DNA of 64,000 nt from an uncultured Planctomycetia bacterium (GCA_964437495.1 CAYTGV010000011.1:3964-67963); one strand, 5' to 3'; counted from the first letter of the stretch, positions 1,377 through 34,644 are shown. Notes: generated by a model not told the origin, from the sequence alone. Program-made: numbers and translations.

Positions 1377-2054
1377 TTACCTCCTTTTTTTGGGTTGCTT
1401 TAAAATATAACATAACTTATCCGCCCTGTCAAGAATAATTCTAGCCAGCCTTTCCTTACTGGTTTTAGCATGCTTTTGAACACCTTCCCTGTCAATCAAA
1501 AATGCCGTAACTTGTCTTTTACCAAAAGGAAGACTCTTTTTCGAATGCATATTTGCCACAATCAGGTCAAGATTCTTGCTTTTGAGCTTTTTAAGGCCGT
1601 TTTCAATCAGATTTTCTGTTTCCAGTGCAAAGCCAATAAGCACCTTATTTTTCTTTTTCCTACCCAACCCCTTCAAGATATCCGGATTTCTCACAAGCTT
1701 TATTTCCGGCACTCCTTTTTCCTTTTTAATCTTTCGATTAATTACCTTGGCAGGACGAAAATCAGCTACAGCCGCAGTACATATAATTATGTCAGCCCAG
1801 TCAAAGAATCTATCCGAGCAGTTCTTAAGCTCTCGAGCGCTGTTAAAACTAACTGTCTTTACCCCTGGGGGAGGTTTCAAATGAGTTGGCCCAGAAAGCA
1901 GTACCACATCATTACCGCGTCTTTTTGCACTCTGGGCAAGAAGATAGCCAATAGTACCTGTTGAAGAATTGGAAATAAAACGGATCGGATCAATAAATTC
2001 TCGGGTAGGTCCAGCTGTAATAAGAATATTGTGTTTTATCTGCCTTTTTTTCAT
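1377..2054 (-). CDS. coaB: Phosphopantothenate-cysteine ligase (CoaB domain), encoded separately from CoaC
   Basis: NILITAGPTREFIDPIRFISNSSTGTIGYLLA is a CoaB signature. Its ATG overlaps the TGA of the upstream coaC (ATGA). Confidence 0.8.
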   Translation of the reverse strand: MKKRQIKHNILITAGPTREFIDPIRFISNSSTGTIGYLLAQSAKRRGNDVVLLSGPTHLKPPPGVKTVSFNSARELKNCSDRFFDWADIIICTAAVADFRPAKVINRKIKKEKGVPEIKLVRNPDILKGLGRKKKNKVLIGFALETENLIENGLKKLKSKNLDLIVANMHSKKSLPFGKRQVTAFLIDREGVQKHAKTSKERLARIILDRADKLCYILKQPKKRR

Positions 2055-2593
2055 TTAAGCAATTCTTCGATTTTCTTGGCAATAGTCTCTACTTCAGCTA
2101 AATGTCCAACACCTTCTCTTCCGCAGGCAAGATCCCCTTTAATCGGCTCAACAATCTTATAGCCAAAACTCTTAAGCCTTAACAGATTGTCCTTTACTGT
2201 CGGATGAGCGTACATATTATCATTCATCGCTGGAGCAATGACCACCTTAGCTTTTGTGGCGGTAATCACACAACTTATTATATCATCGCAAAGACCATGA
2301 GCAAGTTTAGCTATAAAATTAGCTGTTGCCGGAACAACTGCGATCAGATCCAGACTATCAGCTAGGGCAATATGCTCAGGCTCCCACGACATTTCATCTG
2401 AGAACATCTCCATGGAAACCGGCCTTGCGGTCAATGTCCGGAAAGTAAGCGGCGTTACGAATTTTCCCGCATTGCTCGTCAACGCAGCTCTAAGGCCATA
2501 ACCTTTTTTTCTTAAAACCCTGATAAGCTCACAAGCCTTATAGGCGCTAATACCTCCTGTAACTCCTATAAGTATCTCTTTGTTTTTTTTCAT
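2051..2593 (-). CDS. coaC: Phosphopantothenoylcysteine decarboxylase (CoaC flavoprotein)
   Basis: ILIGVTGGISAYKACELIRVLRKKGY is an FMN-binding HFCD-family motif, and PAMNDNMY is also present. Confidence 0.8.
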   Translation of the reverse strand: MKKNKEILIGVTGGISAYKACELIRVLRKKGYGLRAALTSNAGKFVTPLTFRTLTARPVSMEMFSDEMSWEPEHIALADSLDLIAVVPATANFIAKLAHGLCDDIISCVITATKAKVVIAPAMNDNMYAHPTVKDNLLRLKSFGYKIVEPIKGDLACGREGVGHLAEVETIAKKIEELLK

Positions 2594-6062: not shown

Positions 6063-7055
6063 TTAATTGAAATTTTCCAATCTTTTCATAATCCCTTTTT
6101 CTTTTTCAATTATCATTCCCCTTCTAAAACTACTACTTGCCGCTGATTCCTTAATTTTTAATATCCGCCCAGAGTCTTTTACACTCATTCCTATTTTTTT
6201 CACTGCTAAATAAATAAAAACACTGCGAGCCTCTCTAACCTCCTTGGTCTTCATTTCTATCAAAGCTTCTTGCTCAACTTTATATATCTTGCTGATTTTG
6301 CGAAGCAATTCATTCGAATCCTTAAATTCTTTCGGCTCTAGTTCTTCTTGCTTACATCGTTCTAATATATCCGCTGCAAAATCCCCACTGCCTAAAATCC
6401 TTTCATCGCTAACTTGCAGATCTTCCTTGCGTATTTTCAATGCTTCTCCCCATCCTCCCACGCTTCGAATTAATCCACCGCCAAGTAAATGTTTATCTTC
6501 ATTACCTAAGCCTTCTTGTAAATATTCCTCATATGCTTTTAGCGCTGTTGATTTTTTTCTGCCGAAATATTCTAATACCTCTTTGCTATTGATCGCACTC
6601 TCTTCCTGCCTAGCCATAATTTCTCTATGCCCTGTCCACGCATATTCTTTTAGTTTTGATAAAGTAATAATATTAGCTTTCACAGGATTTAAATGTATAT
6701 ACCTGACCAGGGGTAAATAATATTCATCAGCTTCTATGACTATTGATTTATATCTATTTTGAAACAGGTATCCACTGCGCTTATTTCGTTTATTATAATT
6801 TATCGCATATCCGGTGAGTAATTTCCGCATAAAAACAGAAAGACTGGTCTGGCCAGTTTGGTAAAGCAAATGAAAATGATTATCCATAATACACCAAGCA
6901 TGGATTTGCAACCTTGATTCTTTTTGGATATCTTTCAGGCGAGATAAAAAATCCTGTTTATCTGTTTCTTTATGAAATATTTTCAGGCCTTCTATCCCCC
7001 GGCCCATTACATGATGATAACATCCCGGATAATCTAATCGTGCTTGTCTTGGCAT
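6063..7055 (-). CDS. IS200/IS605-like HUH transposase (RAYT/TnpA-like N-terminal domain) with a long C-terminal extension
   Basis: YHHVMGRGI and NHFHLLYQT (an HUH motif) with a downstream catalytic Tyr region (YIHLNPVKA). The 330-aa length suggests a fused C-terminal helix-turn-helix-type domain. Confidence 0.65.
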   Translation of the reverse strand: MPRQARLDYPGCYHHVMGRGIEGLKIFHKETDKQDFLSRLKDIQKESRLQIHAWCIMDNHFHLLYQTGQTSLSVFMRKLLTGYAINYNKRNKRSGYLFQNRYKSIVIEADEYYLPLVRYIHLNPVKANIITLSKLKEYAWTGHREIMARQEESAINSKEVLEYFGRKKSTALKAYEEYLQEGLGNEDKHLLGGGLIRSVGGWGEALKIRKEDLQVSDERILGSGDFAADILERCKQEELEPKEFKDSNELLRKISKIYKVEQEALIEMKTKEVREARSVFIYLAVKKIGMSVKDSGRILKIKESAASSSFRRGMIIEKEKGIMKRLENFN

Positions 7056-7376: not shown

Positions 7377-7640
7377 TTATAATAAAAAAACAGTTCCCAA
7401 AGCATTTTTTAGCTTTGCATTTACTTTATTGGTTTTCAATAAAACTAATAAAAATACATACAAACTAAATTCGACACCTCTTTTAAAAATCAGAATTTCA
7501 AAGTTAACATCTGTGGGTAAAAATATTTCACCGACAATATATTTCATGGAAATAAGCATTATACATAATGGGATTATAACCTGCACCAACCTTATTACAA
7601 ACAAAAACTTAACAATAGTCACTACACGTTTAACAATCAT
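7377..7640 (-). CDS. Small membrane protein; candidate immunity protein for the orphan RHS toxin tip
   Basis: An 87-aa hydrophobic protein with the RBS AAGGAGAG upstream, lying directly downstream of the orphan RHS C-terminal module. Confidence 0.4.
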   Translation of the reverse strand: MIVKRVVTIVKFLFVIRLVQVIIPLCIMLISMKYIVGEIFLPTDVNFEILIFKRGVEFSLYVFLLVLLKTNKVNAKLKNALGTVFLL

Positions 7641-7715: not shown

Positions 7716-8459
7716 TTAAAATGCCACTGCTGCACCTAGGCAATGTTTGGCTACTTTTGCTTTTGGTTGACAATAATTCATACATCTGTCTCTCCACATT
7801 TGAAATTGAGTAAAATAATTCTCATTATACTGTCCATTCTTATTACATTTACGTGGCTCAGGTATTTCATGACAACATGAATTCCAAGCAGAAACAGCTT
7901 TAAAACATTTGTAAATAGCAAAACCAGATATTGCTAATCCCGCATAAACAATTAGGCCAACCCCTGAAATTTCTCCTTTAGGGTCACTTTTATTAACCGG
8001 ATTCCCCTCGACATACCCATAAAGATTAATCCCCCCAGCTACACCAATCGGATCCCGACTAATAAACCTCCCAACATCCGCATCATACCACCTAGCCCTA
8101 TAGTAATACAGGTTTGTATCACTATCTAACCAGCGCCCGGTGAACAGTATCTCATTTTCCAAAGAGCCTGTGCTGCTTTTTATTTTACCATAGACATCAT
8201 ATCCATACGTAGCTATTTTATTCCTAAAGCCGTCCGTTACCGCAACCACGCTTTGCAGGGCGTCCTGATGATAGTAATACGCTGATGAATAATCATCAAT
8301 AGCACATAATACCTCATCAATCTGCGGACCGTATATGATTTCCTTTATAAAGCCGTTTGACCCGTCATATTCAGCTATGCAATGGATACCATCGTAGATG
8401 TAGTATCGAGTATTGGGTATTGCGGATTGCGAGGCTAGATTCTTTTTAAAGCCCAGCAT
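7716..8459 (-). CDS. Orphan RHS C-terminal module (RHS core end DPxGL plus an alternative toxin tip)
   Basis: Residues 1-165 are nearly identical to the core region of the 9289..10584 ORF (YDGIHCIAEY...RARWY...DPIG...NLYGYV..NPVNKSDPKG), then the sequence diverges into a Cys-containing tip. Nucleotides 8163-8440 are near-identical to 9780-10057. Confidence 0.8.
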   Translation of the reverse strand: MLGFKKNLASQSAIPNTRYYIYDGIHCIAEYDGSNGFIKEIIYGPQIDEVLCAIDDYSSAYYYHQDALQSVVAVTDGFRNKIATYGYDVYGKIKSSTGSLENEILFTGRWLDSDTNLYYYRARWYDADVGRFISRDPIGVAGGINLYGYVEGNPVNKSDPKGEISGVGLIVYAGLAISGFAIYKCFKAVSAWNSCCHEIPEPRKCNKNGQYNENYFTQFQMWRDRCMNYCQPKAKVAKHCLGAAVAF

Positions 8460-8563
8460 GCCGTCTTCATAATAAGTGTATTCTATATTCTTGCCCAGGC
8501 TTGAGCCTGCTTTTATTAATCTGTTTTCAGAGTCCCAGGAATAATTCCAGGTGGTACCTTTTA

Positions 8564-8610
8564 AATTAAATAACCCAATTCTGACCCACGCGGTCAGAAT
8601 TGGGTTTTAT
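8564..8610 (-). terminator. Rho-independent terminator downstream of the 8698..9279 gene
   Basis: A perfect 13-bp stem cccaattctgacc/ggtcagaattggg, followed on the minus strand by a T-rich tract (tatttaattt). Confidence 0.6.
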
Positions 8611-8697: not shown

Positions 8698-9279
8698 CTA
8701 CTTTTCTTTATTTAAAGTCATTCCAGTGTTTTTTGACTGCTGTAAAGCAAAAATTATTTCTTTTTTTATTTTCGTACTAATATCCGTTTTAAGAAAAAAT
8801 TCTAGCAAATCAATCTCCTCTTTGTTTAGCAATCTTTTCTTAGCTGTTTTTAACGTCCTTATAATCAAGAACTCTCTGTTCTTATAGTCAGTTCTGGTAT
8901 TAACTGTGTTTTCATGCAATACCTTGTTTGCTTTATACGAAGCATAAATTTGAAAAACAGGCACAAGTAAACTAACAACTAAAACAAAAACAAACAATCT
9001 CATTCTTTCTTTTGCATCTGTTTCTCGCAAAAGTTTTTCAGACGGAAGCTTAATTATATTAAAATATGCTACTTCTACTCCACATAAAAATACCCCCCAA
9101 GAAAGAGCAATCCCATCAATTTTTTTAACATAAAAAAGCAATATGAACATACCCCAAACACACATTAAATGTATTAGTAACCGAAATTTTGTAATATTTT
9201 TGCTTTTCACAGTTTTATTAGAGATATAAAACGAATATATTAATAACAAAAATATCATTAAGAACATTACCTCCTCCAT
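8698..9279 (-). CDS. Membrane protein (about 4 TM plus a soluble tail); candidate immunity protein for the primary RHS toxin
   Basis: It starts 10 nt downstream of the RHS stop and has no recognisable domain. Its position is the classic one for an immunity gene. Confidence 0.45.
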   Translation of the reverse strand: MEEVMFLMIFLLLIYSFYISNKTVKSKNITKFRLLIHLMCVWGMFILLFYVKKIDGIALSWGVFLCGVEVAYFNIIKLPSEKLLRETDAKERMRLFVFVLVVSLLVPVFQIYASYKANKVLHENTVNTRTDYKNREFLIIRTLKTAKKRLLNKEEIDLLEFFLKTDISTKIKKEIIFALQQSKNTGMTLNKEK

Positions 9280-9288: not shown

Positions 9289-10584
9289 TTAATCGCAACA
9301 ATTATCCAAAATAGGTTGACAACCTTCTAAAAGGCTTTGATACCACTCCAAATAAGATTTAATGCAAATCAACTCAGCTATAGCAAAAGAACTCGTGCAA
9401 GCTTTCCAGCAAATTTGACAGGAAATCTTATTAACACCACAAATTAAACCACAGGAAACACTGCAAACAAAATATTGTTTTGCCCCCCAAACTCCACAGT
9501 CATTAACTAAGCCCTTAGATAACTGTATCCCTGCTTGCGCTACGCAAATTTTATAACGCTTTAAGCATCCCGCTGTATACATCCCCTTTAGTCCTTTAGG
9601 GTCACTCTTATTAACCGGCCCGTTTCCCACATACCCATACAAATTAATCCCCCCATCGATACCTATCGGATCCCTTGAGATGAATCTGCCCGTACTGGGT
9701 TCGTACCACCTAGCCCTATAGTAATACAGCCCTGTATCTGAGTCTAACCATCTTCCCGTATACAGTATCTCATTTTCCAAAGAGCCTGTGTTGCTTTTTA
9801 TTTTACCATAGACATCATATCCATACGTAGCTATTTTATTCCTAAAGCCGTCCGTTACCGCAACCACGCTTTGCAGGGCGTCCTGATGATAGTAATACGC
9901 TGATGAATAATCATCAATAGCACATAATACCTCATCAATCTGCGGACCGTATATGATTTCCTTTATAAAGCCGTTTGACCCGTCATATTCAGCTATGCAA
10001 TGGATACCATCGTAGATGTAGTATCTAGTATCAGACGAAGATAGATTCTTTTTAAAGCCCAGCATGCCGTCTTCATAATAAGCATATGATATGTTTTTCC
10101 CCAAACTAGACGCCGCTTTTATTAATCTGTTTTCAGAGTCCCAGGAATAAGTCCAGGTGGTACCCCTTACAGAATTGCTAATCAGGTTTCCGTCTAAATC
10201 ATAATCATATACCGCGCTTGCCGTCGAATCCAATGTGATGTTCAGGCTTGTCTGCGTGATATTGCCGGCATAGTCAGCTGCCTCTAAAGTTATTTCATTT
10301 ACCCCAAAATCAAGCGCCAGGTCGTCTATAGTAAATGTATTGCCGCTGATGGTCGCTATATGATTATTCACAAAAACTGTATCAATATTAGCGTCATCCA
10401 ATATCCCTGAAAGAGATATAATATTGCCGCCTCCATAAATCGAGCTCTCTGAGCGATCCAGCTGATTTAACGTGTTAAACTGGGATGTGATAAATTCTGT
10501 ATTCAGGCTGAAATTAGTTCTATTTCCCAATCGATCAAAGGTATAAGCCTGAGTTGTCCCTTCAGGATAGCTGACATTTATCAG
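9289..10584 (-). CDS. RHS protein, C-terminal part (YD repeats, RHS core, Cys-rich toxin tip); in frame with 10585..13692 across a single TAG
   Basis: Reading the minus strand through TAG at 10585-10587 continues with LINVSYPEGTTQAYTFDRLGNRTNFSL (YD-repeat sequence). The track ORF starts at a TTG with no RBS. It contains the DPIGIDGGINLYGYVGNGPVNKSDPKGL core end and a roughly 95-aa Cys-rich tip. Confidence 0.75.
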   Translation of the reverse strand: MINVSYPEGTTQAYTFDRLGNRTNFSLNTEFITSQFNTLNQLDRSESSIYGGGNIISLSGILDDANIDTVFVNNHIATISGNTFTIDDLALDFGVNEITLEAADYAGNITQTSLNITLDSTASAVYDYDLDGNLISNSVRGTTWTYSWDSENRLIKAASSLGKNISYAYYEDGMLGFKKNLSSSDTRYYIYDGIHCIAEYDGSNGFIKEIIYGPQIDEVLCAIDDYSSAYYYHQDALQSVVAVTDGFRNKIATYGYDVYGKIKSNTGSLENEILYTGRWLDSDTGLYYYRARWYEPSTGRFISRDPIGIDGGINLYGYVGNGPVNKSDPKGLKGMYTAGCLKRYKICVAQAGIQLSKGLVNDCGVWGAKQYFVCSVSCGLICGVNKISCQICWKACTSSFAIAELICIKSYLEWYQSLLEGCQPILDNCCD

Positions 10585-13500
10585 CTAATTAATATTGTCA
10601 TAGCTATAGCTATGTATTCCCTGGCTATCAATTCTCTGCGTCCTGTTGCTATTTTTGTCATAGGCATAGTTAATCGTTGATACGCTGCCCGGTAAGCCCG
10701 GCTCTCCGGCAGCAATGCTTAGCAGCCTGTCAGCTTCATCATAAGTATAGGCAGTCTCTATATCATTCGGGTATTTCAAGCCAATCCGTCTGCCTTTATT
10801 ATCGTATGTGAAAGTAAATGCCTTAAGAGTTCCAGCTGTTTCAAAGGATATGTTGGATACCTGATTAAGATTGTTATAAGTATAATTAACCATTGTACCG
10901 GATGGATAGGTCATCTTTTTGCGATTGCCTAGAGCATCATATTCATACAAGACATGCAAATTACCAGGATAGCCAATATTAATAACCCTGCCTAAATCAT
11001 CATATACATATGTCCTTAGGCCCATAAGATCGGTTATTTGAGCAAGATTCCCTTGTTCATCATATTCGTATAAAATCTTTTGTTCGCCTGGCAAGGTTTT
11101 TTGAGTAAGCCTATTTAAGCCGTCATAACTGAAATTTGTATCCAGAGCACGAGAATTCGTCTTTTTAATTATATTACCGTTATTATCATATTCATAGAGC
11201 TCATACAAACCCATTGAATCAGTAGTTTTTATCAATCTGCTTTTGGAGTCATATTCAAACTGGGTTACATTAGCGTTGCCGTCAGTTATTGAAATACGGT
11301 TTCCAAGCACATCATATCTAAATATTGTCTGCGCCCCTAACACGTCGGCAATATTAATAAGCCTATTGTTTTTATCATATTGATAAGAAGTTGAATTAGC
11401 TTTAGGGTCTTTTACCTGTATTTTATTACCGCCTGCGTCATAACTTATCTCTATTTTTTCCGCTAGATGGTTAGATACCGCGGTTAATCTATTGGCCGCG
11501 TCATAGCTGTAATTTGTTTCATGGTTCAGCTTATCGATTTCTGTAATTATATTCCCGTTTGCATCGTAAACATATTCTATTGATTTACTATTCGCATCAG
11601 TCTCTAATATCTTTCTGCCTAGAGGATCATAGTCATATCTTGTAATATTGCCCAGCGCGTCGGTAATGCTTGATATATTATCACCGGAGCCGCATAGGAC
11701 ACAACCGGAAGTTGCGTCATAGGCATAAATAGTTTCATTCCCTAAGGGGTCTATAGTTTTTACCCTGCGGTTTCTCATGTCATATTCGTAATTCCATGTT
11801 CCATTAAGTTTATGTTCTGCAATAAGCCTGCCCATGGCATTATAATCATAGGTGATATCTATACCCTCAGGTAAATGTACTGCAATCCTACGGTTCATAG
11901 CGTCATAATCATAAGCGGTAATATTATTATTCGCGTCTTTATAGGAAATCATATTGCCATTTGCGTCATAGGTAAACTCTTCAGTATCTCCTGAGGAAAA
12001 TGTTTTAGAAAGCATCATCCCCAGTTTATTAAATTGATATGAAATAGTATTGCCAAGAGAATCAGTCTCACCTATAAGATTGCCAATACTGTCATAAGTA
12101 TACTGCCAGGTATTTCCCTGCGCGTCAGTTTTGGAAGCCATGGTTCCATTTTCATCATAACTAAAAGAACTGCTGTTTCCATTCGCGTCTGTTCTTGAGA
12201 CCATATTGCCAAACTGATCATAACTATAGCTAACCTTATTGCCAACAGGACAGGTTTCACTTTTTATCGAACCGCCCTCTATTTTCCTTGTCCAGGTATT
12301 GCCATTTTTGTCGATCTTAACTGACCATTTTGTATAATTCTCACCTTCAGCAGAAAGAATCCATTCTGTAGAATTACCCAATGGGTCAATTTCCTTCTGC
12401 AAACGGTTAAATTCATCATATACATAATTCCATTCATTACTATTTTCATCGATTACTTTAATCCGATTGCGATTGTCATCGTAAAAAAACTGCTTACTTT
12501 TCCCGTCAACGTATATCGCTTTATTTAACAACATTCTTGAATACTCATACACCGTGGTATTGCCGACTTTGTCAATATAAGTAGTCATTCCCAGGGTTTC
12601 ATCTGTGCTAAATCGCATAGTACCGCCTTCAGGATCAACCACTGACTCTACTCTAAGATTCCAATTCCATTCAGGGAAATGAATAGCAGATTCAAATGGC
12701 TTATTAAAATTATAAACAGTGGTATTGCCGCGTTTATCTGTAACATTAAAACTCTTCAGCAGCAAGTTCTCAGGTGTTTCTTCAAAAATAAAATCATAAT
12801 ACTGGCTATTGCCCACTGGATCTGTGACTTTATTTAAACTCGCCTGATAACCTTTATAAAGATTAAACTCAAGGTCATAATCATAACTTACAAATCTATT
12901 CGCGCTATCCTGTATTGATCCAATTAAGTAAATATTATCATGTCCGTTGTAGTATTCCTGCCAGTTGATTTGAATATATCTACCAGTTTCCGGCTCTATG
13001 ACTTTTACCGGTTTTTTTACTAATCCGCCTAATAAGTTGTCTTGAAATTCCCCGTATTCAAAATCTATCCTATTGCCATAACGGTCCACAATATATTGAA
13101 TATGATATATCCCCGTCTCAGCAGGCAAATCCGATGCTTCAAAAACATACTTTGAGCCAAATCTTAGCTGCCAAATAAAAGTACTGTCTACTTTGGTCAA
13201 ACCAGTAGTGCCACATTCAGGCCGGATATAAATATCACCAATCTTGATAAAATTGATCAGCTCCCCGTTTTCAGAAGTTAGCGTTGCTCCAACTTCTGTT
13301 TCTTCAAGACGCATTTCAACATTTGTCACCCAGCCTCTACCCAGGCTGCCTGATCGGCTTGATTGAGAAGAAAAAGATCTTTTGAAATTCAAGTATGTAA
13401 TGCCGGTCTTCTTGCCATTACCGCTTAATTCAAGATCGACTTCAGGAATAAATATTTTACCTCCTGTTATAGATACAGGATCTTGTATGTCAGAATTATC

Positions 13501-13692
13501 CTCCTCTTTATCATTATCCTCATCAGGAGGAGGCTTAAGCATTTCATCTCCATTTGGGCAAATCCCATTATCATCAGGACCATCAGCAGGTGTCTGACTG
13601 GCACAAATAGGTTCAATCAATAACAGATCGCCGGCAAAAAAAATAAAAGAAAATAACAAAATTAAAACAATAAAAAGTCTTCTTTTTCTCAT
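10585..13692 (-). CDS. RHS/YD-repeat protein, N-terminal part with signal peptide
   Basis: A 1035-aa protein with a signal peptide (MRKRRLFIVLILLFSFIFFAG) and dozens of YD repeats (xYxYDxxGNxxS). It ends at an in-frame TAG followed by more YD repeats. Confidence 0.85.
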   Translation of the reverse strand: MRKRRLFIVLILLFSFIFFAGDLLLIEPICASQTPADGPDDNGICPNGDEMLKPPPDEDNDKEEDNSDIQDPVSITGGKIFIPEVDLELSGNGKKTGITYLNFKRSFSSQSSRSGSLGRGWVTNVEMRLEETEVGATLTSENGELINFIKIGDIYIRPECGTTGLTKVDSTFIWQLRFGSKYVFEASDLPAETGIYHIQYIVDRYGNRIDFEYGEFQDNLLGGLVKKPVKVIEPETGRYIQINWQEYYNGHDNIYLIGSIQDSANRFVSYDYDLEFNLYKGYQASLNKVTDPVGNSQYYDFIFEETPENLLLKSFNVTDKRGNTTVYNFNKPFESAIHFPEWNWNLRVESVVDPEGGTMRFSTDETLGMTTYIDKVGNTTVYEYSRMLLNKAIYVDGKSKQFFYDDNRNRIKVIDENSNEWNYVYDEFNRLQKEIDPLGNSTEWILSAEGENYTKWSVKIDKNGNTWTRKIEGGSIKSETCPVGNKVSYSYDQFGNMVSRTDANGNSSSFSYDENGTMASKTDAQGNTWQYTYDSIGNLIGETDSLGNTISYQFNKLGMMLSKTFSSGDTEEFTYDANGNMISYKDANNNITAYDYDAMNRRIAVHLPEGIDITYDYNAMGRLIAEHKLNGTWNYEYDMRNRRVKTIDPLGNETIYAYDATSGCVLCGSGDNISSITDALGNITRYDYDPLGRKILETDANSKSIEYVYDANGNIITEIDKLNHETNYSYDAANRLTAVSNHLAEKIEISYDAGGNKIQVKDPKANSTSYQYDKNNRLINIADVLGAQTIFRYDVLGNRISITDGNANVTQFEYDSKSRLIKTTDSMGLYELYEYDNNGNIIKKTNSRALDTNFSYDGLNRLTQKTLPGEQKILYEYDEQGNLAQITDLMGLRTYVYDDLGRVINIGYPGNLHVLYEYDALGNRKKMTYPSGTMVNYTYNNLNQVSNISFETAGTLKAFTFTYDNKGRRIGLKYPNDIETAYTYDEADRLLSIAAGEPGLPGSVSTINYAYDKNSNRTQRIDSQGIHSYSYDNIN

Positions 13693-13693
13693 T

Positions 13694-14941
13694 TTATATT
13701 TTCCTTCCTTTTGAATCTAAAAGACTCGTCAATGTTTCTATGCTTTTTAACGCTATTTCCGCATCCACTTTAAATTTCGTCTCCGGATATCTGGATAACA
13801 AAGACTTATAAGTACTTATTGCTGATTGATAATCCGCTTGATCAACCTGCAGCCTGCCCAGATAAAACAATCCCTCTTCCCGCATTTCCTCCATACGCAT
13901 CACTTCTCTAAACTGCTTTTCCGCTTCTTTAAACATATCATAGTTTCGATAGATCTCACCAAGCTGAAGCTTTAACTCAGGCACCATTTCACCCTCAGCG
14001 ATCGCTTTTTTCGCGTAATTAATAGCCTGCATTTTATCTTTCTTTTTTCTTAGACACTGCAACGCTTTAACTTTATTTCCAACTTTAAGAAAATAATTAT
14101 GCGCTTTATCAAAGGCCCTTAGAGAAAAACACATATCACCCAGCGAATCATGATCATTTGCTTCTTTGAAATATTTAGCAGCCAATGCATAGTTTCCTTT
14201 TTTAAAATAAACCTTTCCTATCCCGCTTTTATTATTAGCTTGCTTGAAATATTTCAAAGCCAAATTATATTGTCCGCGGTTTAATGCCAATAAAGCCAGA
14301 CCGTCCACATCATTTTCTTCTTGAAAATATTTACGTGCTTTCTTAAATTGCCCCTCATTCAAAGCCACAAGTCCTAAACCGGAGTAATCCTTATTTCTAT
14401 TAAAATAATACTTGGCTTTCTGCCTATCTCCTTTATTGAAATAAGCCAGCCCTAATCCGGAGTAATCATTAGCCCTATCAAATATCTGAATTGCCTTGCG
14501 ATGCTGGCCCATTCCCATATAAGCATGTCCTGAAGCTGTGAATTCATTGCCATTTTTAAATTCTTCCAAAGCCTCCTTAAATCGATGCTGTGAGCATAAA
14601 ACTAATCCCACTCCAGCGTGATCATTTTCCTCTTTGAAATTTTTCAAAGCTTTCGCAAAGTCTCTTTTCTGAAGATAGACAAGCCCTAGGCCTTTTTTGT
14701 CTCCTATCTGCCTAAATCTTTCTTCAGCTTCACCATACATACGGCGCTTTAGAAAAAGCAGGCCTAAACCGCTTTTATTATTTGCTAAAGAAAATGCGTT
14801 TATTGCTTTATCATAATTACGCATTTTTAAATATCTATACCCCATGGCTGAATGCCCATGATCAAATGCCAGTAAAAATACTGTTGTGCCCAGTACTAAC
14901 ATCAAGGTTGACTTCCATAAAAATTCTTTGCGTACCTTCAT
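13694..14941 (-). CDS. Secreted protein with about ten 25-28 aa repeats (GLGLxxxxxxxxxAxxxFxxxND); TPR/Sel1-like
   Basis: An N-terminal hydrophobic segment and a repeated DYSGLGL...KA.KYF motif. It lies between the GT2 gene and the RHS gene on the same strand, with 1-nt spacing to the RHS gene. Confidence 0.5.
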   Translation of the reverse strand: MKVRKEFLWKSTLMLVLGTTVFLLAFDHGHSAMGYRYLKMRNYDKAINAFSLANNKSGLGLLFLKRRMYGEAEERFRQIGDKKGLGLVYLQKRDFAKALKNFKEENDHAGVGLVLCSQHRFKEALEEFKNGNEFTASGHAYMGMGQHRKAIQIFDRANDYSGLGLAYFNKGDRQKAKYYFNRNKDYSGLGLVALNEGQFKKARKYFQEENDVDGLALLALNRGQYNLALKYFKQANNKSGIGKVYFKKGNYALAAKYFKEANDHDSLGDMCFSLRAFDKAHNYFLKVGNKVKALQCLRKKKDKMQAINYAKKAIAEGEMVPELKLQLGEIYRNYDMFKEAEKQFREVMRMEEMREEGLFYLGRLQVDQADYQSAISTYKSLLSRYPETKFKVDAEIALKSIETLTSLLDSKGRKI

Positions 14942-14984
14942 AACTTTCTCCTTTTCAACTTTTCGAATATTAGCAGAATAATCA

Positions 14985-16673
14985 TCATAGATTTCGTAAA
15001 ATCGTAATACCTATAAAAAACATGATTGCAACAGTTAAGGCAAAAGGCACTGGTACTAAAGCTTTAACTATCTTCTTATCCCCCCAGGATATAACTAAAA
15101 GTGTAAGTACAAAAGCAGTACCTAATGAAACAAGCCAAAGATTATATGTAGCCAAAGCGAAAATAATCAAAAATATACCAACAAACATTTCACTTAGAAG
15201 CCAATACAGATTATTCTCTTTCTCATTTATATTATTGGTAACAGGAAAGTAGGTCTTTCCGGTGATCACATAAAGCATGATTTCCTTAGCAGAATCAAGC
15301 AAAATAGATAAATGCAAAAAAGATGACATAGCTACATAACGCAGCATTCGGGCGCGTTTATTCCACATATCAATTATCGCGGGAATTAAAGGAAAAAATA
15401 TAACCAAAAACATTACTAAATAAAAATCAAACACCCAAAACACATTATATCTGGTTTTCAAAATGACCTGTGCCAAATTATCATAAAATAACGGCGGTAC
15501 AAGAAATAAAGGCCCTCGCACCTGAGAAGCCGTATAATAAAAAGGCATAATAAAACTTGCCACACAAACTAGCATCAAAAACGGAATTGCCTGCAGCAAG
15601 GCAAACGCGGAAATAAAGATATCCGCTTTTTCAAACCAGGGCACACATTTTGCCCTAAGAATTTGCGGATAGAACTCAGTTAAATACTGGTAAGTACCTC
15701 TAACCCATTTTCTATTACGTTTGCGGAATTTTTCAATGTTTTGAGGAAATTCCTCACCACAAACCGTATCTTCATCTATAATACCGTAATATCCTATTCT
15801 GCGAGCTTCAGATGAAAAAGCAAGGTCCTCTGTAACAACCTCGGGGATACCACCTAACGCCTCAATTACAGACCGCTTTAATACAGCTCCATGCCCGTAC
15901 CACATCACAAAACCAAATTTATTTTTTAATGACATATAATGGCGCCAATGGATATCAACCATTGACTTCATCGTCCGCCCAAAAGATCCTTTTTGATCTT
16001 CAATCGCAGCCTGAACAGCCTGAACAAAAGCTATTTTCGGGCTTAATTGAAACTTAGGAATAAGCTTAATGAGAAAATCAACCGGAAGTTCTGTATCGGA
16101 GTCATTAACCGCGATATACTCAAAACGTTTTTCAACTTTATTTAATGCGTCGTTTATATTCCCTGCTTTAAAACCACGCTGCTTATTTCTCCTTAATACA
16201 CTAATAATTGATCGATTATGCGCTTGGAATAAATCGATTTTTTCTTTAATTTCTTTATTATCACTGTCATCGCAAATAAACACATGAAAATCCTCGTATT
16301 TCTGTCCAATACAGGTCAAACACGCTTTTTCATTAAAATCATTCCTGGTCATATAAAGAATCGCAACCGCTGGTAAAGACGCACGAAAAGTTTTTTTGCT
16401 TTCTATTGGCGTATGCAAAAAATATGAAAAAAATATATGAACAGAATGATAAAGCCCGTACAGCCACATCATATTAATCCCTAAAACAAAGATCACAACT
16501 GAAGCTTTAGCAATGAGCGGCTCATCGCCTATAAGTAATGCCAAGAGAATAGGATTAAAGTATAAGGCAATTAAAAACCAGCAAAATAAGATAGACAGAA
16601 TTAATAAGTCATTCTTATCTATATCTCCGTTCTCCGTAAACCTAATTGTCTTTAATACACGTTTAATATTCAT
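14985..16673 (-). CDS. Membrane-bound family 2 glycosyltransferase (processive beta-glycan synthase-like)
   Basis: N- and C-terminal TM segments flank a cytoplasmic GT-A domain with DxD (NDSDTE), a TED motif and RKWVRG (QxxRW-like). Confidence 0.7.
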   Translation of the reverse strand: MNIKRVLKTIRFTENGDIDKNDLLILSILFCWFLIALYFNPILLALLIGDEPLIAKASVVIFVLGINMMWLYGLYHSVHIFFSYFLHTPIESKKTFRASLPAVAILYMTRNDFNEKACLTCIGQKYEDFHVFICDDSDNKEIKEKIDLFQAHNRSIISVLRRNKQRGFKAGNINDALNKVEKRFEYIAVNDSDTELPVDFLIKLIPKFQLSPKIAFVQAVQAAIEDQKGSFGRTMKSMVDIHWRHYMSLKNKFGFVMWYGHGAVLKRSVIEALGGIPEVVTEDLAFSSEARRIGYYGIIDEDTVCGEEFPQNIEKFRKRNRKWVRGTYQYLTEFYPQILRAKCVPWFEKADIFISAFALLQAIPFLMLVCVASFIMPFYYTASQVRGPLFLVPPLFYDNLAQVILKTRYNVFWVFDFYLVMFLVIFFPLIPAIIDMWNKRARMLRYVAMSSFLHLSILLDSAKEIMLYVITGKTYFPVTNNINEKENNLYWLLSEMFVGIFLIIFALATYNLWLVSLGTAFVLTLLVISWGDKKIVKALVPVPFALTVAIMFFIGITILRNL

Positions 16674-16674
16674 A

Positions 16675-17373
16675 TCAGTTTGTTTTTCCTGTTACCACCG
16701 AGCCATCAAATGGAGAAAGAGTGAAAATTCCCGGCGCTTCTGTATCAAGAATAATCTGCGCGCTTTCAACCTGCTCTTCCTGTGTAACCTTATGCCTGAA
16801 TTTTACATATATTGTTTTTCCTCCGTCTTCATTTGATATATAAAAAATTATTGTTGGAGCATATCCCTGCCACTGGCAATTCGTAAACATGGGATCTTCG
16901 CTAACAGCTATCTCGTAAGACGTATTAGAATCAATTTCCAGAGTAATTTTATTATTGCTTGTATACTTTCCTTCTTTTATGGTGAAAGCGTTTTCGTAAC
17001 TCGATATAACGGTTATCCTTTTATACCCAGTTGCTAAAATCTTTTTCTTCCCTTTTTTACTTTTTCTGAACACCTTTACCTTAAGCCTTTGCTTTTCTGA
17101 TAATCCATCCACAAACACATTAAAAGCATATCTTCCTTTTGCTATTTTCATCAAAGATACTGCCCTGCCAGACTTCGGAAAAGAAGCCTTAATAATAAGT
17201 GACTTATTTTTAACCCATTTTCCATTCTTTGTAAGCTCTACATTAAATACAGCCTCTTCTCCGACCACATAGGTTTCCTTATTTGATGTTACTTTTACCA
17301 TCCAATCCGCGGCCTGTACTGCCTGCACTTGAATCAAAAATAACAATAGGAATAAACTCATTATTTTCTTCAC
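16675..17373 (-). CDS. Secreted hypothetical protein (signal peptide)
   Basis: MKKIMSLFLLLFLIQVQAVQA is a signal peptide. No recognisable catalytic motif. Confidence 0.5.
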   Translation of the reverse strand: MKKIMSLFLLLFLIQVQAVQAADWMVKVTSNKETYVVGEEAVFNVELTKNGKWVKNKSLIIKASFPKSGRAVSLMKIAKGRYAFNVFVDGLSEKQRLKVKVFRKSKKGKKKILATGYKRITVISSYENAFTIKEGKYTSNNKITLEIDSNTSYEIAVSEDPMFTNCQWQGYAPTIIFYISNEDGGKTIYVKFRHKVTQEEQVESAQIILDTEAPGIFTLSPFDGSVVTGKTN

Positions 17374-27237: not shown

Positions 27238-29298
27238 TTATCTGTTTTTTTCATTGCCTGATAAAACCAGCACCCTCATTACCTCTCTCAGCATCTCTTT
27301 TTCTTTATCCTTCATTCCTTTACGTTTATAAAATCCAGCCAGATTATAGTAGGCTTCCAGGTACTCGCCATTAAGTTCTATGGCTTTTAAATAACACTTA
27401 TTGGCATCATCAAATCTCTCGAGTTTTTCATAAACTACGCCAAGATGATTAAAGGCCGGAGAAAAGGAATCATCAATAGTCACTGCCTTTTGCAATATTT
27501 CAAGAGCCTCGACAAATTGTTTTTTTGCTATATAAGCTGCTCCCATATTTGTCATTGTCGCCACGTCTTCAGGGTCAATCTCCAGGGCTTTGCTATAATA
27601 TTGCATTGCTGCGTCAATTTTATTCCCTCTAGCAAGAGCAATCCCAATATTTGAATATGCCGCCGAATCATCCGGATCTATCTCGATCGTTTCCTGGAAT
27701 TTAGCAATTGCTTTATCATATTGCCTGCCCTCTAAATATAAAACCCCCTGATTATATACTGCATCCAGGTTGGCAGGATCCAGCTTCTGAGCGCTAATGA
27801 ATGATTTCAATGCCTTTTGCGTCTGCCCCTTATAGCTGAAGGCATTGCCCAGATTAAACAGCCAGCGTGATTTATTATCCTCATCGACATCAAATAATCT
27901 TGAGTTAACAAAAACAAACATCATAAATAAAAATATCAAAGACAAAGAAAATATCTTATAATTTTTGCGTTTTATTTTCCCAAACAACCAGACTATAGCA
28001 TATGAGGCAAATATGATAAAAATCGGGACAACCGCTATGCGATAGCGGCTGACTACAAAAAAAATGATCATGAGTAAAAACTGCGATAAAATAAACAGAT
28101 TAAGCAATATTACCGATTTATCTTTTTTAAAAGACACGGCTATCCCAAGCAGCGCCAAAGGACAGATGATCCCAAAGGGGAACGAAATAAATCCTCTGGA
28201 AAAAACAAGCATCTGAAGTAAAGGCGACCATATCTTAAAGAAATAAATACTCTGATTCTCTGGGATCTCATAAGCATTAAAAAAGTAATAGCATTTCCGC
28301 ACAAGCAGCTTAACCCATGTGAGGGGATTACTTACCACAAACTGAACAGCTCTAGAGGTCCAAAAATCAGAGACCTCAGACGGCTTCATTTTTCTGCCCT
28401 GAATCCTCTCAGCCACCTTGATCGAAGATACCCATACATTATCTTTCCATCCGCGATAGGAATAATCCCTTGATGGAGGTATCGCTGTCTTACCGTCAGC
28501 ATGTGCATTATTTCCTATATAAAGATTTATTCCCCCGGTTGAAGAAAGCAGCACAAAGTCCCCGCCTTGCATAACATTGCGCAAGGCAAAAGGGGTAAGA
28601 ATCAGCACTACGCCGATTGTAGTAATAACCAGGGTTAAGAATCTTCCATATTTAAAGATCTTAGATCCAATAGAGTGTTTTTTGTTGTAAATATATATCC
28701 AGATAAGCATTAAAGGAAAGAATAAAATAGCATTGGCACTTATCTGCAGAGCTAAACTAAAAATCACACCGCAGCCAAGCCATTTAGACATCTTAGGCTT
28801 ATCTATGGTATAAAGCAGTGCTAAAAGCAGTCCGATATTAAAAAATAAACTCAGACCTACATTCAGCAACTGTGCGTCAAAATAAATAAATACACCGTAT
28901 ACACTGCATATACACGCAGAAATTATCCCGACATTTCGGCTAAAAACCTTTTTCCCCAGACAATAGACTAAAATACAGTTAAAGGCACCAAGAAACATTT
29001 GAACAACTCTGGCAGCTGTAAATCCGCTGCCCAAAAATTTAAAAATAATTGCCAAAAAATATACATATAAAGGCACACGCGGGGTTACAACCCCCTTGAT
29101 CATCCAGTCTCCAGCTGCTATACGCTTAGCAAACAAATAGTGCGAAAGCGCGTCTATTACCGGGCTATCATAAAAAGGATTCTGCTTAAACTGATACAAA
29201 TATATAAGTCTAAGGAAAAAAGCCAGTAAAAAAATAGCCCCAATCCAGAGAATATCCTTAAATCTTTCATTGTTCTTAGTCTTATCTATTAAGTTCAT
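27238..29298 (-). CDS. GT39/ArnT-like membrane glycosyltransferase fused to C-terminal TPR repeats
   Basis: About 11 TM helices in the N-terminal 450 aa are followed by 5-6 TPR repeats (AxxYxxxGxAY pattern). Confidence 0.7.
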   Translation of the reverse strand: MNLIDKTKNNERFKDILWIGAIFLLAFFLRLIYLYQFKQNPFYDSPVIDALSHYLFAKRIAAGDWMIKGVVTPRVPLYVYFLAIIFKFLGSGFTAARVVQMFLGAFNCILVYCLGKKVFSRNVGIISACICSVYGVFIYFDAQLLNVGLSLFFNIGLLLALLYTIDKPKMSKWLGCGVIFSLALQISANAILFFPLMLIWIYIYNKKHSIGSKIFKYGRFLTLVITTIGVVLILTPFALRNVMQGGDFVLLSSTGGINLYIGNNAHADGKTAIPPSRDYSYRGWKDNVWVSSIKVAERIQGRKMKPSEVSDFWTSRAVQFVVSNPLTWVKLLVRKCYYFFNAYEIPENQSIYFFKIWSPLLQMLVFSRGFISFPFGIICPLALLGIAVSFKKDKSVILLNLFILSQFLLMIIFFVVSRYRIAVVPIFIIFASYAIVWLFGKIKRKNYKIFSLSLIFLFMMFVFVNSRLFDVDEDNKSRWLFNLGNAFSYKGQTQKALKSFISAQKLDPANLDAVYNQGVLYLEGRQYDKAIAKFQETIEIDPDDSAAYSNIGIALARGNKIDAAMQYYSKALEIDPEDVATMTNMGAAYIAKKQFVEALEILQKAVTIDDSFSPAFNHLGVVYEKLERFDDANKCYLKAIELNGEYLEAYYNLAGFYKRKGMKDKEKEMLREVMRVLVLSGNEKNR

Positions 29299-32284: not shown

Positions 32285-32410
32285 TAAATACCCCTTTTAT
32301 TTTTATTGAATTATTATATAATTTTAACACATAAATTCACTTCTTACAAACACAAACATACATGATTTGACATGCCTGCGCATAAATGTTAGACTAAGTA
32401 TTAATTAATT

Positions 32411-33829: not shown

Positions 33830-34574
33830 GCTTGGCATGTAATTCCTTGCCGATAAGCTGCAAATAACCTTGAATTGTCTCTTTGATATTCATTTTACTC
33901 TTACCCGTACGCAGATCAAAACGCAGATCAATAGGAACCTCTTCTAATTTTATCCCCAACGGCTTTAACTTTATAAGTATTTCCGCCATACAGGAAAAAC
34001 CCTTCTGCATAAGAAATCTGTCCTTGTAAAAATCAAGTGCTCTTTTTAAAACAAATATTTTATAAGCCCGAAAAAATGTTGTATAATCTCTTGCCCCTTT
34101 TATGGGAAAAATCAAGCGCAACATTGCATTAATGCCATCACTTAAAAAAGCGCGCATAAAAGGCAGGTTAACACATTTGCTGTTCTTATGATAACGAGAA
34201 GCTATCGCTACATCATTGCCTTCATCCAGAGCATCAATAAGCAGGTTAAATGTCTGGGCTTTATGTGTTTGGTCACAGTCCATGGATATCATGATATCAT
34301 CATTTTCAGAATGCCGGCAGATCCATTCTATTCCCTGGCGGAAAACCGCGTCCACTCCCCTATTTTCATCAAAAGATAAAATTTGAAGAGGAAATAAATC
34401 CCGAACAGATTCAAGCACCTTTAGGGTATTATCAATGCTGCCGTCATTGACAACCAAGACGCGGTATAACACCTTACGGCTATCAAGAACCTGTCTAATC
34501 TCATCCAATATCGCTTTAACATTTTTCTCTTCATTATAAGCCGGAAGTAGAACAAAAATCATGTGCAGCACCAT
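33810..34574 (-). CDS. Family 2 glycosyltransferase (dolichyl/polyprenyl-phosphate sugar synthase-like)
   Basis: An N-terminal LLPAYNEE...VVNDGSID...MDCD pattern of DPM/GtrB-type GT2 enzymes. Confidence 0.75.
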   Translation of the reverse strand: MVLHMIFVLLPAYNEEKNVKAILDEIRQVLDSRKVLYRVLVVNDGSIDNTLKVLESVRDLFPLQILSFDENRGVDAVFRQGIEWICRHSENDDIMISMDCDQTHKAQTFNLLIDALDEGNDVAIASRYHKNSKCVNLPFMRAFLSDGINAMLRLIFPIKGARDYTTFFRAYKIFVLKRALDFYKDRFLMQKGFSCMAEILIKLKPLGIKLEEVPIDLRFDLRTGKSKMNIKETIQGYLQLIGKELHAKLSGVFR

Positions 34575-34644
34575 CCCTTTTTTGCTTTTTTCTTGTTTAT
34601 GTAAAATGAAAGAACCTGATTATACCGATTGAAAACCATTTAAC

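What the first reader, a model, noticed from the sequence alone, without database searches (positions are those of the whole stretch)
9289..13692. RHS toxin gene interrupted by a single in-frame TAG
The 1035-aa RHS ORF ends ...SYSYDNIN at TAG (10585-10587). The same frame then continues without interruption as LINVSYPEGTTQAYTFDRLGNRTNFSL... through more YD repeats, the RHS core (DPIG...PVNKSDPKGL) and a Cys-rich toxin tip, for about 1467 aa in total. The downstream ORF has only a TTG and no RBS. Standard stop usage elsewhere (TAG ends gmk, TGA ends pyk and pyrR) argues against an alternative genetic code. This is therefore either a fresh nonsense mutation that inactivates the toxin while keeping its immunity gene, a sequencing or assembly error, or programmed amber read-through.
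Basis: seen in the sequence. Interest (0 to 1): 0.6.

Follow-up and report, generated by a model that had tools for sequence, protein, structure and literature searches.

The report
Nonsense-mutated RHS toxin gene
A large bacterial toxin gene (RHS type) in an uncultured Omnitrophota bacterium is cut short by one C-to-T change that turned a glutamine codon into a stop codon, which is an ordinary way for such toxin genes to be switched off.

Summary
On the minus strand, a 1035-codon RHS ORF (13692→10588) ends at TAG (10585-10587). The same frame then runs 431 more codons to TAA (9289-9291). That downstream part holds the RHS-associated core domain, the PVNKSDPKGL cleavage motif and a 100-aa toxin tip with 13 Cys.

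The TAG replaces a glutamine codon. The nearest homologs read AAT CAG CTG where the window reads AAT TAG CTG. A syntenic locus in another metagenome scaffold carries the same four-gene operon with one intact 1505-aa RHS ORF and CAA at that column. Of 104 homologs spanning the junction, 103 have a sense residue there (R 81, Q 10), one has a gap, and none stops.

The TAG allele is the only allele seen, on five contigs from different assemblies, one of which differs by two SNPs. A one-off error is therefore unlikely.

TAG ends 7 of 52 ORFs in the window, including gmk. The window has no tRNA(CUA) and no pyl genes. The stop is not conserved. The downstream TTG has no Shine-Dalgarno sequence.

Best reading: a recent CAG→TAG nonsense mutation disabled the main rhs gene, while the immunity genes and a silent orphan toxin module remain. 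This is ordinary.

The parts
16675..17373 (-). 232-aa gene with no family assignment; first gene of the conserved four-gene operon
   Evidence: 33% identical to the 288-aa first gene of the syntenic locus L004. Only a weak YtkA-like Pfam hit.
14985..16673 (-). Family-2 glycosyltransferase, 562 aa; second operon gene
   Evidence: Pfam Glyco_trans_2_3 4.4e-18. 59% identical to the L004 GT2 in the same position.
13694..14941 (-). TPR-repeat protein, 415 aa; third operon gene. Its TAA lies one base before the RHS ATG.
   Evidence: Pfam TPR_2 3e-30. 54% identical to the L004 412-aa gene. Junction sequence ...TAAAATG.
10588..13692 (-). RHS main gene, N-terminal 1035 codons: hydrophobic signal-like N-terminus, DUF6531 and YD-repeat shell
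   Evidence: PF05593 RHS_repeat 5e-92 in 14 stretches; DUF6531 3e-12. TIGR01643 1.5e-70. Aligns to residues 1-1022 of the intact L004 RHS.
10585..10587 (-). In-frame TAG (codon 1036), derived from a Gln codon
   Evidence: Window reads AAT TAG CTG ATA AAT GTC; nearest homologs read AAT CAG CTG ATC AAT GTA; L004 ortholog has CAA. Homolog column: R 81, Q 10, other sense 12, gap 1.
9289..10584 (-). RHS main gene, C-terminal 431 codons plus TAA: last YD repeats, Ig-like insert, RHS core and toxin tip. Not translated unless the TAG is read through.
   Evidence: Translation. Aligns to L004 RHS residues 1024-1346 at 52% identity. Glucodextran_B-like hit of 26.7 bits at residues 58-119, just below the Pfam cutoff of 27.
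9589..9819 (-). RHS-associated core domain, ending in the PVNKSDPKGL motif
   Evidence: TIGR03696 at 92.4 bits (cutoff 32.5), residues 256-332 of the downstream part. Motif read in the translation.
9292..9591 (-). 100-aa C-terminal toxin tip with 13 Cys and no known family
   Evidence: Cys count. No Pfam hit at E<=0.1.
8698..9279 (-). Putative cognate immunity gene (193 aa; 189 aa from the second ATG, which follows GGAGGAGG). Hydrophobic, membrane-protein-like; ends in TAG.
   Evidence: ORF. Sequence and SD. No family hit. JGI gene call of 189 aa. The membrane character is my reading of the sequence.
8572..8606 (-). Perfect 15-bp inverted repeat (terminator-like) between the immunity gene and the orphan module
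   Evidence: scan_promoters_terminators.
7716..8558 (-). Orphan RHS C-terminal module: ORF 7716-8459 (247 aa), with homology to the main gene's core from 8558, and a different toxin tip
   Evidence: 87% aa identity to main-gene residues 1175-1367. TIGR03696 93.4 bits. Stops and unrelated sequence upstream.
9792..10025 (-). 234-nt tract of the main gene identical to the orphan module (recent gene conversion). It lies 560 nt downstream of the TAG.
   Evidence: Nucleotide alignment of main gene against orphan. The L002 contig breaks inside it, at 9885.
7377..7640 (-). 87-aa ORF after the orphan module; putative orphan immunity gene
   Evidence: ORF list. Gene called in L001. No family hit. The role is inferred from position only.
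6063..7055 (-). Y1 (IS200/REP-associated-like) transposase with a DnaA_C-type HTH, flanking the rhs array
   Evidence: Pfam Y1_Tnp 2.9e-11. NF047646 8e-19, below its cutoff. A 74% identical homolog sits next to rhs orphan modules in L006/L007.

Best explanation
This is the main rhs (YD-repeat polymorphic toxin) gene of an uncultured Omnitrophota bacterium. It has suffered a single C-to-T transition that changed Gln codon 1036 (CAG) to the amber stop TAG. Translation therefore ends after 1035 residues, inside the YD-repeat shell. The product lacks the last repeats, the Ig-like insert, the RHS core with its self-cleavage motif, and the Cys-rich toxin tip, so the locus can no longer make a loaded toxin. 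The downstream 431 codons are still intact because the mutation is evolutionarily recent. The immunity gene has its own ribosome-binding site and can still be expressed. The TAG lies about 420 nt upstream of the region shared with the orphan module, so swapping in the orphan toxin by recombination would not repair the gene. Shown: the TAG, the Gln ancestry, the intact syntenic ortholog, the position of the core domain behind the stop, and normal use of TAG as a stop. Inferred: loss of toxin function, continued immunity expression, and recency.
For: The TAG and the open 431-codon continuation are in the sequence. The nearest homologs read CAG and the syntenic ortholog reads CAA at this codon. 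L004 carries the same operon (33%, 59% and 54% identity for the three upstream genes) with one uninterrupted 1505-aa RHS whose residues 1-1022 and 1024-1346 align to the two window parts. Of 104 junction-spanning homologs, 103 have a sense residue and one has a gap. The Rhs_assc_core domain and toxin lie behind the stop. The exact truncated product is on five contigs from NCBI, JGI, ENA and Logan, and no intact allele is in the protein collection; the next-best junction homolog is 66% identical. L001 differs by 2 SNPs yet keeps TAG. TAG terminates 7 of 52 ORFs in the window, including gmk (profile-complete) and the immunity gene. There is no SD before the TTG at 10530. Pseudogenisation of rhs genes by nonsense mutations with retained immunity genes is documented (PMC5727410; bioRxiv 10.1101/2025.05.08.652813).
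Against: No reads could be inspected, and the five contigs may derive from overlapping sample sets. Population-level fixation is therefore inferred from assemblies only. The downstream part shows no decay at all and keeps every conserved column, which also fits continued use through read-through. The +4 base is C; to my knowledge this is a weak termination context in E. coli, and I did not check it here. No expression data are available. The rest of the genome could not be searched for a suppressor tRNA.
Confidence: 0.8

Rival explanations
1. Leaky, unprogrammed read-through. The TAG is real, but a small fraction of ribosomes read it with a near-cognate tRNA. If that tRNA were tRNA-Gln, the ancestral residue would be restored. 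The cell would then still make a low dose of full-length toxin, and selection would still act on the downstream part.
For: The downstream 431 codons are fully intact with all conserved columns kept. The two SNPs that separate L001 from the window both fall in the downstream part and are both synonymous, though n=2 is not significant. The +4 base is C. An 8-bp hairpin starts at the TAG. That near-cognate tRNA-Gln can read UAG is from my own knowledge and was not tested.
Against: The stop is absent from every homolog, so nothing points to an evolved mechanism. The hairpin is not conserved in the nearest homologs, and it contains the stop codon rather than lying 3' of it. Intactness is equally expected for a recent mutation and for silent orphan modules, which also stay open.
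Confidence: 0.1
2. Sequencing, consensus or assembly artefact. The true gene has CAG, and the TAG comes from an error or a minority allele promoted into the consensus.
For: Only assemblies were seen, not reads. All carriers are nearly identical (99.99-100%) and may come from related samples. The locus contains repeats that break assemblies.
Against: The same TAG is present in five contigs of different lengths from at least four assemblies by different pipelines, including one with a distinct consensus. No intact allele is present among 15 billion proteins. The TAG lies 560 nt away from the 234-nt identical tract and about 420 nt from the edge of the main/orphan repeat, so a repeat-induced misjoin is not the cause.
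Confidence: 0.05
3. Programmed recoding. The TAG is decoded as an amino acid (pyrrolysine, or Gln through a suppressor tRNA of the cell or of an infecting TAG-recoded phage), so the gene encodes a regulated 1467-aa toxin.
For: The TAG sits at a position that is Gln in the nearest homologs. TAG-to-Gln recoding exists in some phages (my own knowledge). Only 64 kb of the genome could be examined.
Against: There is one TAG among 1467 codons, against 41 ordinary Gln codons. TAG is not depleted as a terminator (7 of 52) and ends profile-complete genes such as gmk. The window has no tRNA(CUA) and no pyl or methylamine methyltransferase genes among the ORFs scanned. No paper in the library links pyrrolysine to Omnitrophota. 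No other long gene in the window has an in-frame TAG.
Confidence: 0.02
4. A genuine two-gene arrangement. The downstream ORF is translated on its own from TTG 10530 as a 413-aa protein carrying the core and toxin.
For: Gene callers annotate a 413-aa ORF. Close relatives have free-standing modules of 327-551 aa of similar extent.
Against: No SD and no promoter-like signal beyond background precede the TTG. The TTG encodes the Leu of a conserved DRLGNR repeat motif. The relatives' short modules are orphan modules preceded by stops and unrelated DNA, not halves of a split gene. The syntenic ortholog is a single ORF.
Confidence: 0.03

Closest known systems
rhs loci with a main gene followed by orphan C-terminal modules (C-terminal displacement; enterobacterial rhs, Snodgrassella alvi rhs arrays: PMC5727410 and the works it cites, Jackson 2009 and Koskiniemi 2014)
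   Same: A large main gene with a YD-repeat shell, the RHS core ending in PxxxxDPxGL, a variable toxin tip and a small downstream immunity gene. It is followed by an orphan module that shares the core (87% aa identity, with a 234-nt identical tract) but has a different tip and its own small downstream ORF.
   Different: The host is an uncultured Omnitrophota bacterium. No PAAR, VgrG or T7SS-type delivery domain was found; the N-terminus instead looks like a secretion signal, followed by DUF6531. The gene sits in a conserved operon with a GT2 glycosyltransferase and a TPR protein. The toxin tip has no known family.
rhs genes pseudogenised by nonsense mutations with retained immunity genes (S. 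alvi rhs3 and rhs2, PMC5727410; 'Rhs pseudogenes' in plant pathogens, bioRxiv 10.1101/2025.05.08.652813)
   Same: A premature stop inside an otherwise recognisable rhs gene, with the immunity gene kept downstream.
   Different: There is only one lesion and no further decay, so this is an early stage. The stop lies upstream of the main/orphan recombination region, so it silences the whole array.
Amber (UAG) recoding: pyrrolysine insertion, or suppressor-tRNA or TAG-to-Gln recoding
   Same: An in-frame TAG followed by a long conserved reading frame, with the TAG at a Gln position.
   Different: The stop is not conserved, occurs only once, is not accompanied by recoding machinery in the window, and TAG serves as an ordinary terminator nearby.

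Membership tests
RHS / YD-repeat polymorphic toxin | Many YD (RHS) repeats forming the shell | tested here: met
   PF05593 5e-92 in 14 stretches. TIGR01643 1.5e-70 in 8 stretches.
RHS / YD-repeat polymorphic toxin | RHS-associated core domain ending in the PxxxxDPxGL self-cleavage motif, followed by a variable toxin tip | tested here: met
   TIGR03696 at 92.4 bits against a cutoff of 32.5; PVNKSDPKGL followed by a 100-aa tip. All of it lies downstream of the TAG.
RHS / YD-repeat polymorphic toxin | Shell, core and toxin encoded in one continuous reading frame | tested here: not met
   TAG at codon 1036. The syntenic ortholog in L004 is continuous at 1505 aa. The gene therefore counts as a disrupted member.
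RHS / YD-repeat polymorphic toxin | Cognate immunity gene immediately downstream | tested here: inconclusive
   A 189/193-aa hydrophobic ORF with a strong SD lies 10 nt after the TAA. It has no family hit. Immunity function cannot be tested here.
RHS / YD-repeat polymorphic toxin | Orphan C-terminal modules sharing the core region | tested here: met
   The 7716-8558 module is 87% identical to main-gene residues 1175-1367 and has a distinct tip.
RHS / YD-repeat polymorphic toxin | Recognised delivery domain (PAAR/VgrG-binding for T6SS, LXG/WXG for T7SS, etc.) | tested here: not met
   Pfam and NCBIfam find only DUF6531 and repeats in the N-terminal part. A signal-peptide-like N-terminus is seen by eye only.
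Programmed stop-codon read-through or recoding (pyrrolysine or suppressor) | The stop codon is conserved at the same position in homologs | tested here: not met
   Of 104 homologs, 103 have a sense residue and one has a gap. The nearest have CAG or CAA.
Programmed stop-codon read-through or recoding (pyrrolysine or suppressor) | Decoding machinery in the genome (tRNA-CUA, pylTSBCD) and other genes with in-frame TAG | tested here: inconclusive
   None in the 64-kb window. The rest of the genome is not available.
Programmed stop-codon read-through or recoding (pyrrolysine or suppressor) | A conserved stimulatory RNA structure 3' of the stop | tested here: not met
   A hairpin exists (8 bp; 81-nt region z = -3.3). 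It includes the stop codon itself, and its arms are not present in the nearest homologs.
Independent downstream gene (two-gene arrangement) | Start codon with a ribosome-binding site, and homologs that begin there | tested here: not met
   TTG with no SD. The orphan modules of relatives begin at scattered points 80 aa upstream to 65 aa downstream of the TAG column, after unrelated DNA.

The most novel reading that the evidence does not exclude
The amber codon is not a dead end but a throttle. It sits at a Gln position with C as the next base and at the foot of a hairpin. It might be read at low or conditional efficiency, either by near-cognate tRNA-Gln or by a suppressor tRNA supplied by a TAG-recoded phage. 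This Omnitrophota cell would then make its toxin only rarely or only under particular conditions, while always making immunity protein.
Probability: 0.04. Interest if true: 0.6.

Novelty: new member of a known kind. Interest (0 to 1): 0.13.

Why it matters
It matters little beyond annotation. The two gene calls (1035 aa and 413 aa) should be merged and flagged as one disrupted rhs gene, not treated as two proteins. The locus documents an early stage of toxin loss with immunity retained in an uncultured Omnitrophota population. It also shows that these bacteria carry classic main-plus-orphan rhs arrays, here in a conserved operon with a glycosyltransferase and a TPR protein. If read-through were demonstrated it would be a more interesting case of toxin dosage control, but nothing here points that way.

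Tried and rejected
(1) Are the nearest homologs also split here? The best hits were all short (327-551 aa) and start near the junction. Their contigs show stops and unrelated DNA upstream, so they are orphan C-terminal modules, some near contig ends. They read through the TAG column with CAG. Rejected.

(2) Exact-pattern scan of metagenome contigs with N at the first base of the codon, to find CAG alleles: 0 hits. Even the TAG contigs are absent, so that collection does not hold this population. Uninformative.

(3) Protein-guided scans of genome contigs and metagenome contigs found no relative closer than 33% and 67% identity respectively. No sister genome was available for dN/dS on the downstream part.

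(4) The listing of cluster members gave no organism names and no longer cluster member. P0122 differs from P0001 only in how the TTG start is written.

(5) Pyrrolysine or an alternative code: no tRNA(CUA), no pyl genes among about 50 scanned ORFs, normal TAG stop usage, and no literature link. Rejected as far as 64 kb allows.

(6) A hairpin at the TAG as a read-through signal: not conserved. Set aside.

(7) Misassembly at a repeat: the 234-nt identical main/orphan tract starts 560 nt from the TAG. Rejected.

(8) Searches for the sample identifiers in the literature found nothing. The two Omnitrophota genome papers do not mention Rhs, toxins or stop codons.

(9) Structure prediction was not run, because it would not bear on the question.


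Full report
OBSERVATION

The feature is on the minus strand. The ORF listing gives a 1035-aa ORF at 13692→10585 (ATG start) and a 413-aa TTG-start ORF at 10530→9289. Translating 13692→9289 in one frame yields 1468 codons with exactly two stops. One is the internal TAG at codon 1036 (window 10585-10587, CTA on the + strand). The other is the terminal TAA at 9289-9291.

Before the stop...IDSQGIHSYSYDNIN*. After it: LINVSYPEGTTQAYTFDRLGNRTNFSL..., then ...RFISRDPIGIDGGINLYGYVGNGPVNKSDPKGL, then a 100-aa tail with 13 Cys.

From the gene's base composition, the chance of 431 consecutive open codons is about 5e-15. The downstream part also has strong homology to RHS proteins.

WHAT THE GENE IS

The upstream 1035 residues carry DUF6531 and 14 RHS-repeat matches (PF05593, 5e-92; TIGR01643, 1.5e-70).

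The RHS-associated core domain (TIGR03696, 92.4 bits against a cutoff of 32.5) lies at residues 256-332 of the downstream part, behind the stop. A weak Ig-like (Glucodextran_B) segment at residues 58-119 is also downstream. The 100-aa tip matches no Pfam family. The 1035-aa ORF alone is therefore an RHS shell fragment without core, cleavage site or toxin.

THE LOCUS

- Upstream genes. On the same strand and tightly packed lie a 232-aa gene, a GT2 glycosyltransferase (562 aa) and a TPR protein (415 aa). The TPR gene's TAA is one base from the RHS ATG.
- Immunity candidate. A 189/193-aa hydrophobic ORF with a GGAGGAGG ribosome-binding site follows 10 nt after the TAA.
- Inverted repeat. A perfect 15-bp terminator-like repeat lies at 8572-8606.
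- Orphan module. The region 7716-8558 is 87% identical in protein to main-gene residues 1175-1367. It has its own TIGR03696 hit and a different tip, and is preceded by stops and unrelated sequence.
- Further downstream are an 87-aa ORF and a Y1 transposase.
- Gene conversion. A 234-nt tract (9792-10025) is identical between the main gene and the orphan module, which shows recent gene conversion. One assembly (L002) breaks inside it.

This is the classic main-gene-plus-orphan architecture described for rhs loci (PMC5727410).

ORGANISM AND GENETIC CODE

The window's pyruvate kinase has its best named relatives (78% down to 48% identity) almost exclusively in MAGs labelled Candidatus Omnitrophota or Omnitrophica. 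The nearest RHS relatives carry the same label.

The window is ordinary bacterial chromosome. It encodes coaC/coaB, gmk, yicC, pyrF/D/K/C/B/R, fpg, rpoN, pyk and a cluster of B12-radical-SAM genes.

Of the 52 long minus-strand ORFs, 31 end in TAA, 14 in TGA and 7 in TAG. The TAG-terminated ones include gmk, whose match covers the whole guanylate-kinase profile, and the immunity candidate. No other pair of long same-frame ORFs on the coding strand is separated by a TAG. ARAGORN finds only tRNA-Leu(UAA) and tRNA-Cys(GCA). None of about 50 ORFs scanned is a pyl gene or a methylamine methyltransferase. A full-text search found no paper connecting pyrrolysine with Omnitrophota. Within the limits of 64 kb, the code is standard and TAG is a working terminator.

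WHAT STOOD AT THE TAG

A junction-spanning query first gave a puzzling picture. After the window's own 413-aa ORF, the closest hits (50-66% identity) were all short proteins (327-551 aa) that begin within about 80 residues of the junction.

Their contigs resolve this. P0002 and P0005 are preceded in frame by stops and non-homologous DNA. P0004 is the second RHS-like gene of its locus. All are orphan C-terminal modules, not halves of split genes. Those that reach the junction column read through it:
- P0002 and P0005 have ...YAYDQINQLINV..., encoded AAT CAG CTG ATC AAT GTA.
- The window has AAT TAG CTG ATA AAT GTC.

The locus around P0004 (L004, a 627-kb scaffold) is syntenic with the window. 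It has a 288-aa gene, a GT2 (59% identical), a 412-aa TPR gene (54%) and then one uninterrupted 1505-aa RHS gene. The window's two parts align to residues 1-1022 and 1024-1346 of that protein. Residue 1023 is Gln, encoded CAA.

Across 104 homologs whose alignment spans the junction collinearly, the column holds R 81, Q 10, K 3, H 2, T 2, N 2, E 2, L 1 and one gap. None terminates.

The gene itself uses CAG for 24 of its 41 Gln codons. The simplest history is a single C→T transition, CAG→TAG.

IS THE TAG REAL?

The exact 1035-aa product is recorded on five contigs drawn from NCBI, JGI, ENA and Logan assemblies. Their lengths differ (70.5, 69.7, 65.5 and 62.0 kb, and one of 20-50 kb).
- L002 is identical to the window over 13.8 kb.
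- L001 differs at two positions in 18 kb (9862 and 9853, both synonymous third positions in the downstream part) and still has the TAG.

No intact allele exists in the protein collection. The 1035-aa protein is alone in its 90% cluster, and the best junction-spanning relative is 66% identical.

The TAG is 560 nt from the identical main/orphan tract, so a repeat-driven misjoin is not the cause.

I could not look at reads, and the samples may be related. "Fixed in the sampled population" is therefore an inference from assemblies. The two public-collection scans meant to find variant alleles returned nothing close.

MECHANISM AND CONSEQUENCES

Shown: translation by the standard code stops inside the shell, 332 residues before the end of the core domain.

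Inferred from what is established for RHS toxins: the shell must close around the toxin, and the core's aspartyl protease motif releases the toxin. The truncated product therefore cannot deliver anything.

The downstream TTG has no Shine-Dalgarno sequence and encodes the Leu of a DRLGNR repeat motif. Independent expression is therefore unlikely.

The homology shared with the orphan module starts at 10164, about 420 nt downstream of the TAG. C-terminal displacement would therefore not remove the stop. The whole array is offensively silent until the stop reverts.

The immunity genes keep their own translation signals. This matches the pattern of toxin lost and immunity kept reported for Snodgrassella rhs loci, where rhs genes with nonsense mutations are described (PMC5727410). 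It also fits the high frequency of rhs pseudogenes in plant pathogens.

The mutation is recent. The downstream part has no second lesion and keeps every invariant and near-invariant column of the family alignment.

RIVALS

- Leaky read-through cannot be excluded. The next base is C, and an 8-bp hairpin (UAGCUGAU-AAAU-GUCAGCUA) begins at the stop (81-nt context z = -3.3). However, the hairpin arms are not present in the nearest homologs, and the stop is not conserved anywhere.
- Programmed recoding fails its conservation test, and its machinery is not seen.
- An artefact is unlikely for the reasons given above.
- A true two-gene arrangement lacks start signals and is contradicted by the intact syntenic ortholog.

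COMPARISON AND NOVELTY

The locus is a member of the RHS family by repeats, core domain, tip, immunity position and orphan module. It fails only the "one continuous frame" criterion, which makes it a disrupted member. It lacks any recognised T6SS or T7SS delivery domain.

The unfamiliar aspects are the Omnitrophota host, the conserved 232-aa/GT2/TPR/RHS operon and an unclassified Cys-rich tip. These are side observations, not part of the finding. The in-frame TAG itself is a commonplace nonsense mutation.

VERDICT

The interpretation as a fresh nonsense mutation is supported, while error and programmed read-through are disfavoured. Interest is low (0.13). The practical consequence is to annotate one disrupted rhs gene rather than two proteins.

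Noticed in passing
window 13694-17373 (-) and L004 520-8869: The RHS gene is the last gene of a conserved four-gene operon: a small unknown protein, a GT2 glycosyltransferase, a TPR protein and RHS. The operon is shared with a distant relative at 33%, 59%, 54% and 43-52% identity. The RHS has a signal-like N-terminus and no T6SS or T7SS delivery domain. The operon partners might take part in its export or surface attachment.
   Followed up: partly
window 9792-10025 vs about 8185-8420 (-): A 234-nt tract is perfectly identical between the main rhs gene and the orphan module, flanked by DNA of about 80% identity. This indicates recent gene conversion. It also coincides with an assembly break in one contig (L002 ends at 9885).
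   Followed up: yes
window 10568-10587 (sense strand: UAGCUGAU-AAAU-GUCAGCUA): An 8-bp hairpin begins exactly at the in-frame TAG. The C-to-T change adds its outermost pair. The surrounding 81 nt fold with z = -3.3, but the arms are not conserved in the nearest homologs.
   Followed up: partly
window 8572-8606 (-): A perfect 15-bp inverted repeat (AACCCAATTCTGACC...GGTCAGAATTGGGTT) followed by a T-rich tail lies between the immunity gene and the start of orphan homology. It is likely a terminator that keeps the orphan module silent, or a REP-like element related to the nearby Y1 transposase.
   Followed up: no
window 6063-7055 (-); L006 6415-7386; L007 6459-7430: A Y1 (IS200/REP-associated-like) transposase fused to a DnaA_C-type HTH flanks the rhs array. 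A 74% identical copy sits beside rhs orphan modules in another Omnitrophota MAG. This suggests a recurring association of this element with rhs arrays.
   Followed up: partly
window 62351-62788 (-): A 145-aa ORF matches only the last 138 positions of the 542-position ABC_tran_2 family (PF16949, 5e-28). Upstream in frame are several stops and then a separate small PilZ-domain ORF (63057-63383). It looks like the remnant of a truncated gene, so gene decay occurs elsewhere in this window.
   Followed up: partly
window 1377-2593 (-): The normally fused CoaBC is encoded as two ORFs overlapping by 4 nt. CoaC (2051-2593) matches profile positions 2-178, and CoaB (1377-2054) matches 186-389. Each scores just under the equivalog cutoff.
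   Followed up: no
window 29295-38200: A cluster of four B12-binding radical SAM genes (three on the minus strand, one on the plus strand) lies with a glycosyltransferase, a polysaccharide deacetylase and an FAD oxidoreductase. All rSAM hits are far below equivalog cutoffs, so the pathway is uncharacterised.
   Followed up: no
window 44000-60000: A low-GC stretch (29-35% against about 38% elsewhere) is full of small ORFs without family hits. One is an AbiU2-type HEPN protein (48721-49374). A 610-aa UPF0489/peptide-arginase-like protein lies at 56729-58561. This may be an island of defence or accessory genes.
   Followed up: no
L001 13831 and 13840 (window 9862, 9853): The only two differences between the JGI contig and the window in 18 kb lie 9 nt apart inside the gene-conversion tract of the downstream RHS part. 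Both are synonymous, and neither matches the orphan copy.
   Followed up: partly
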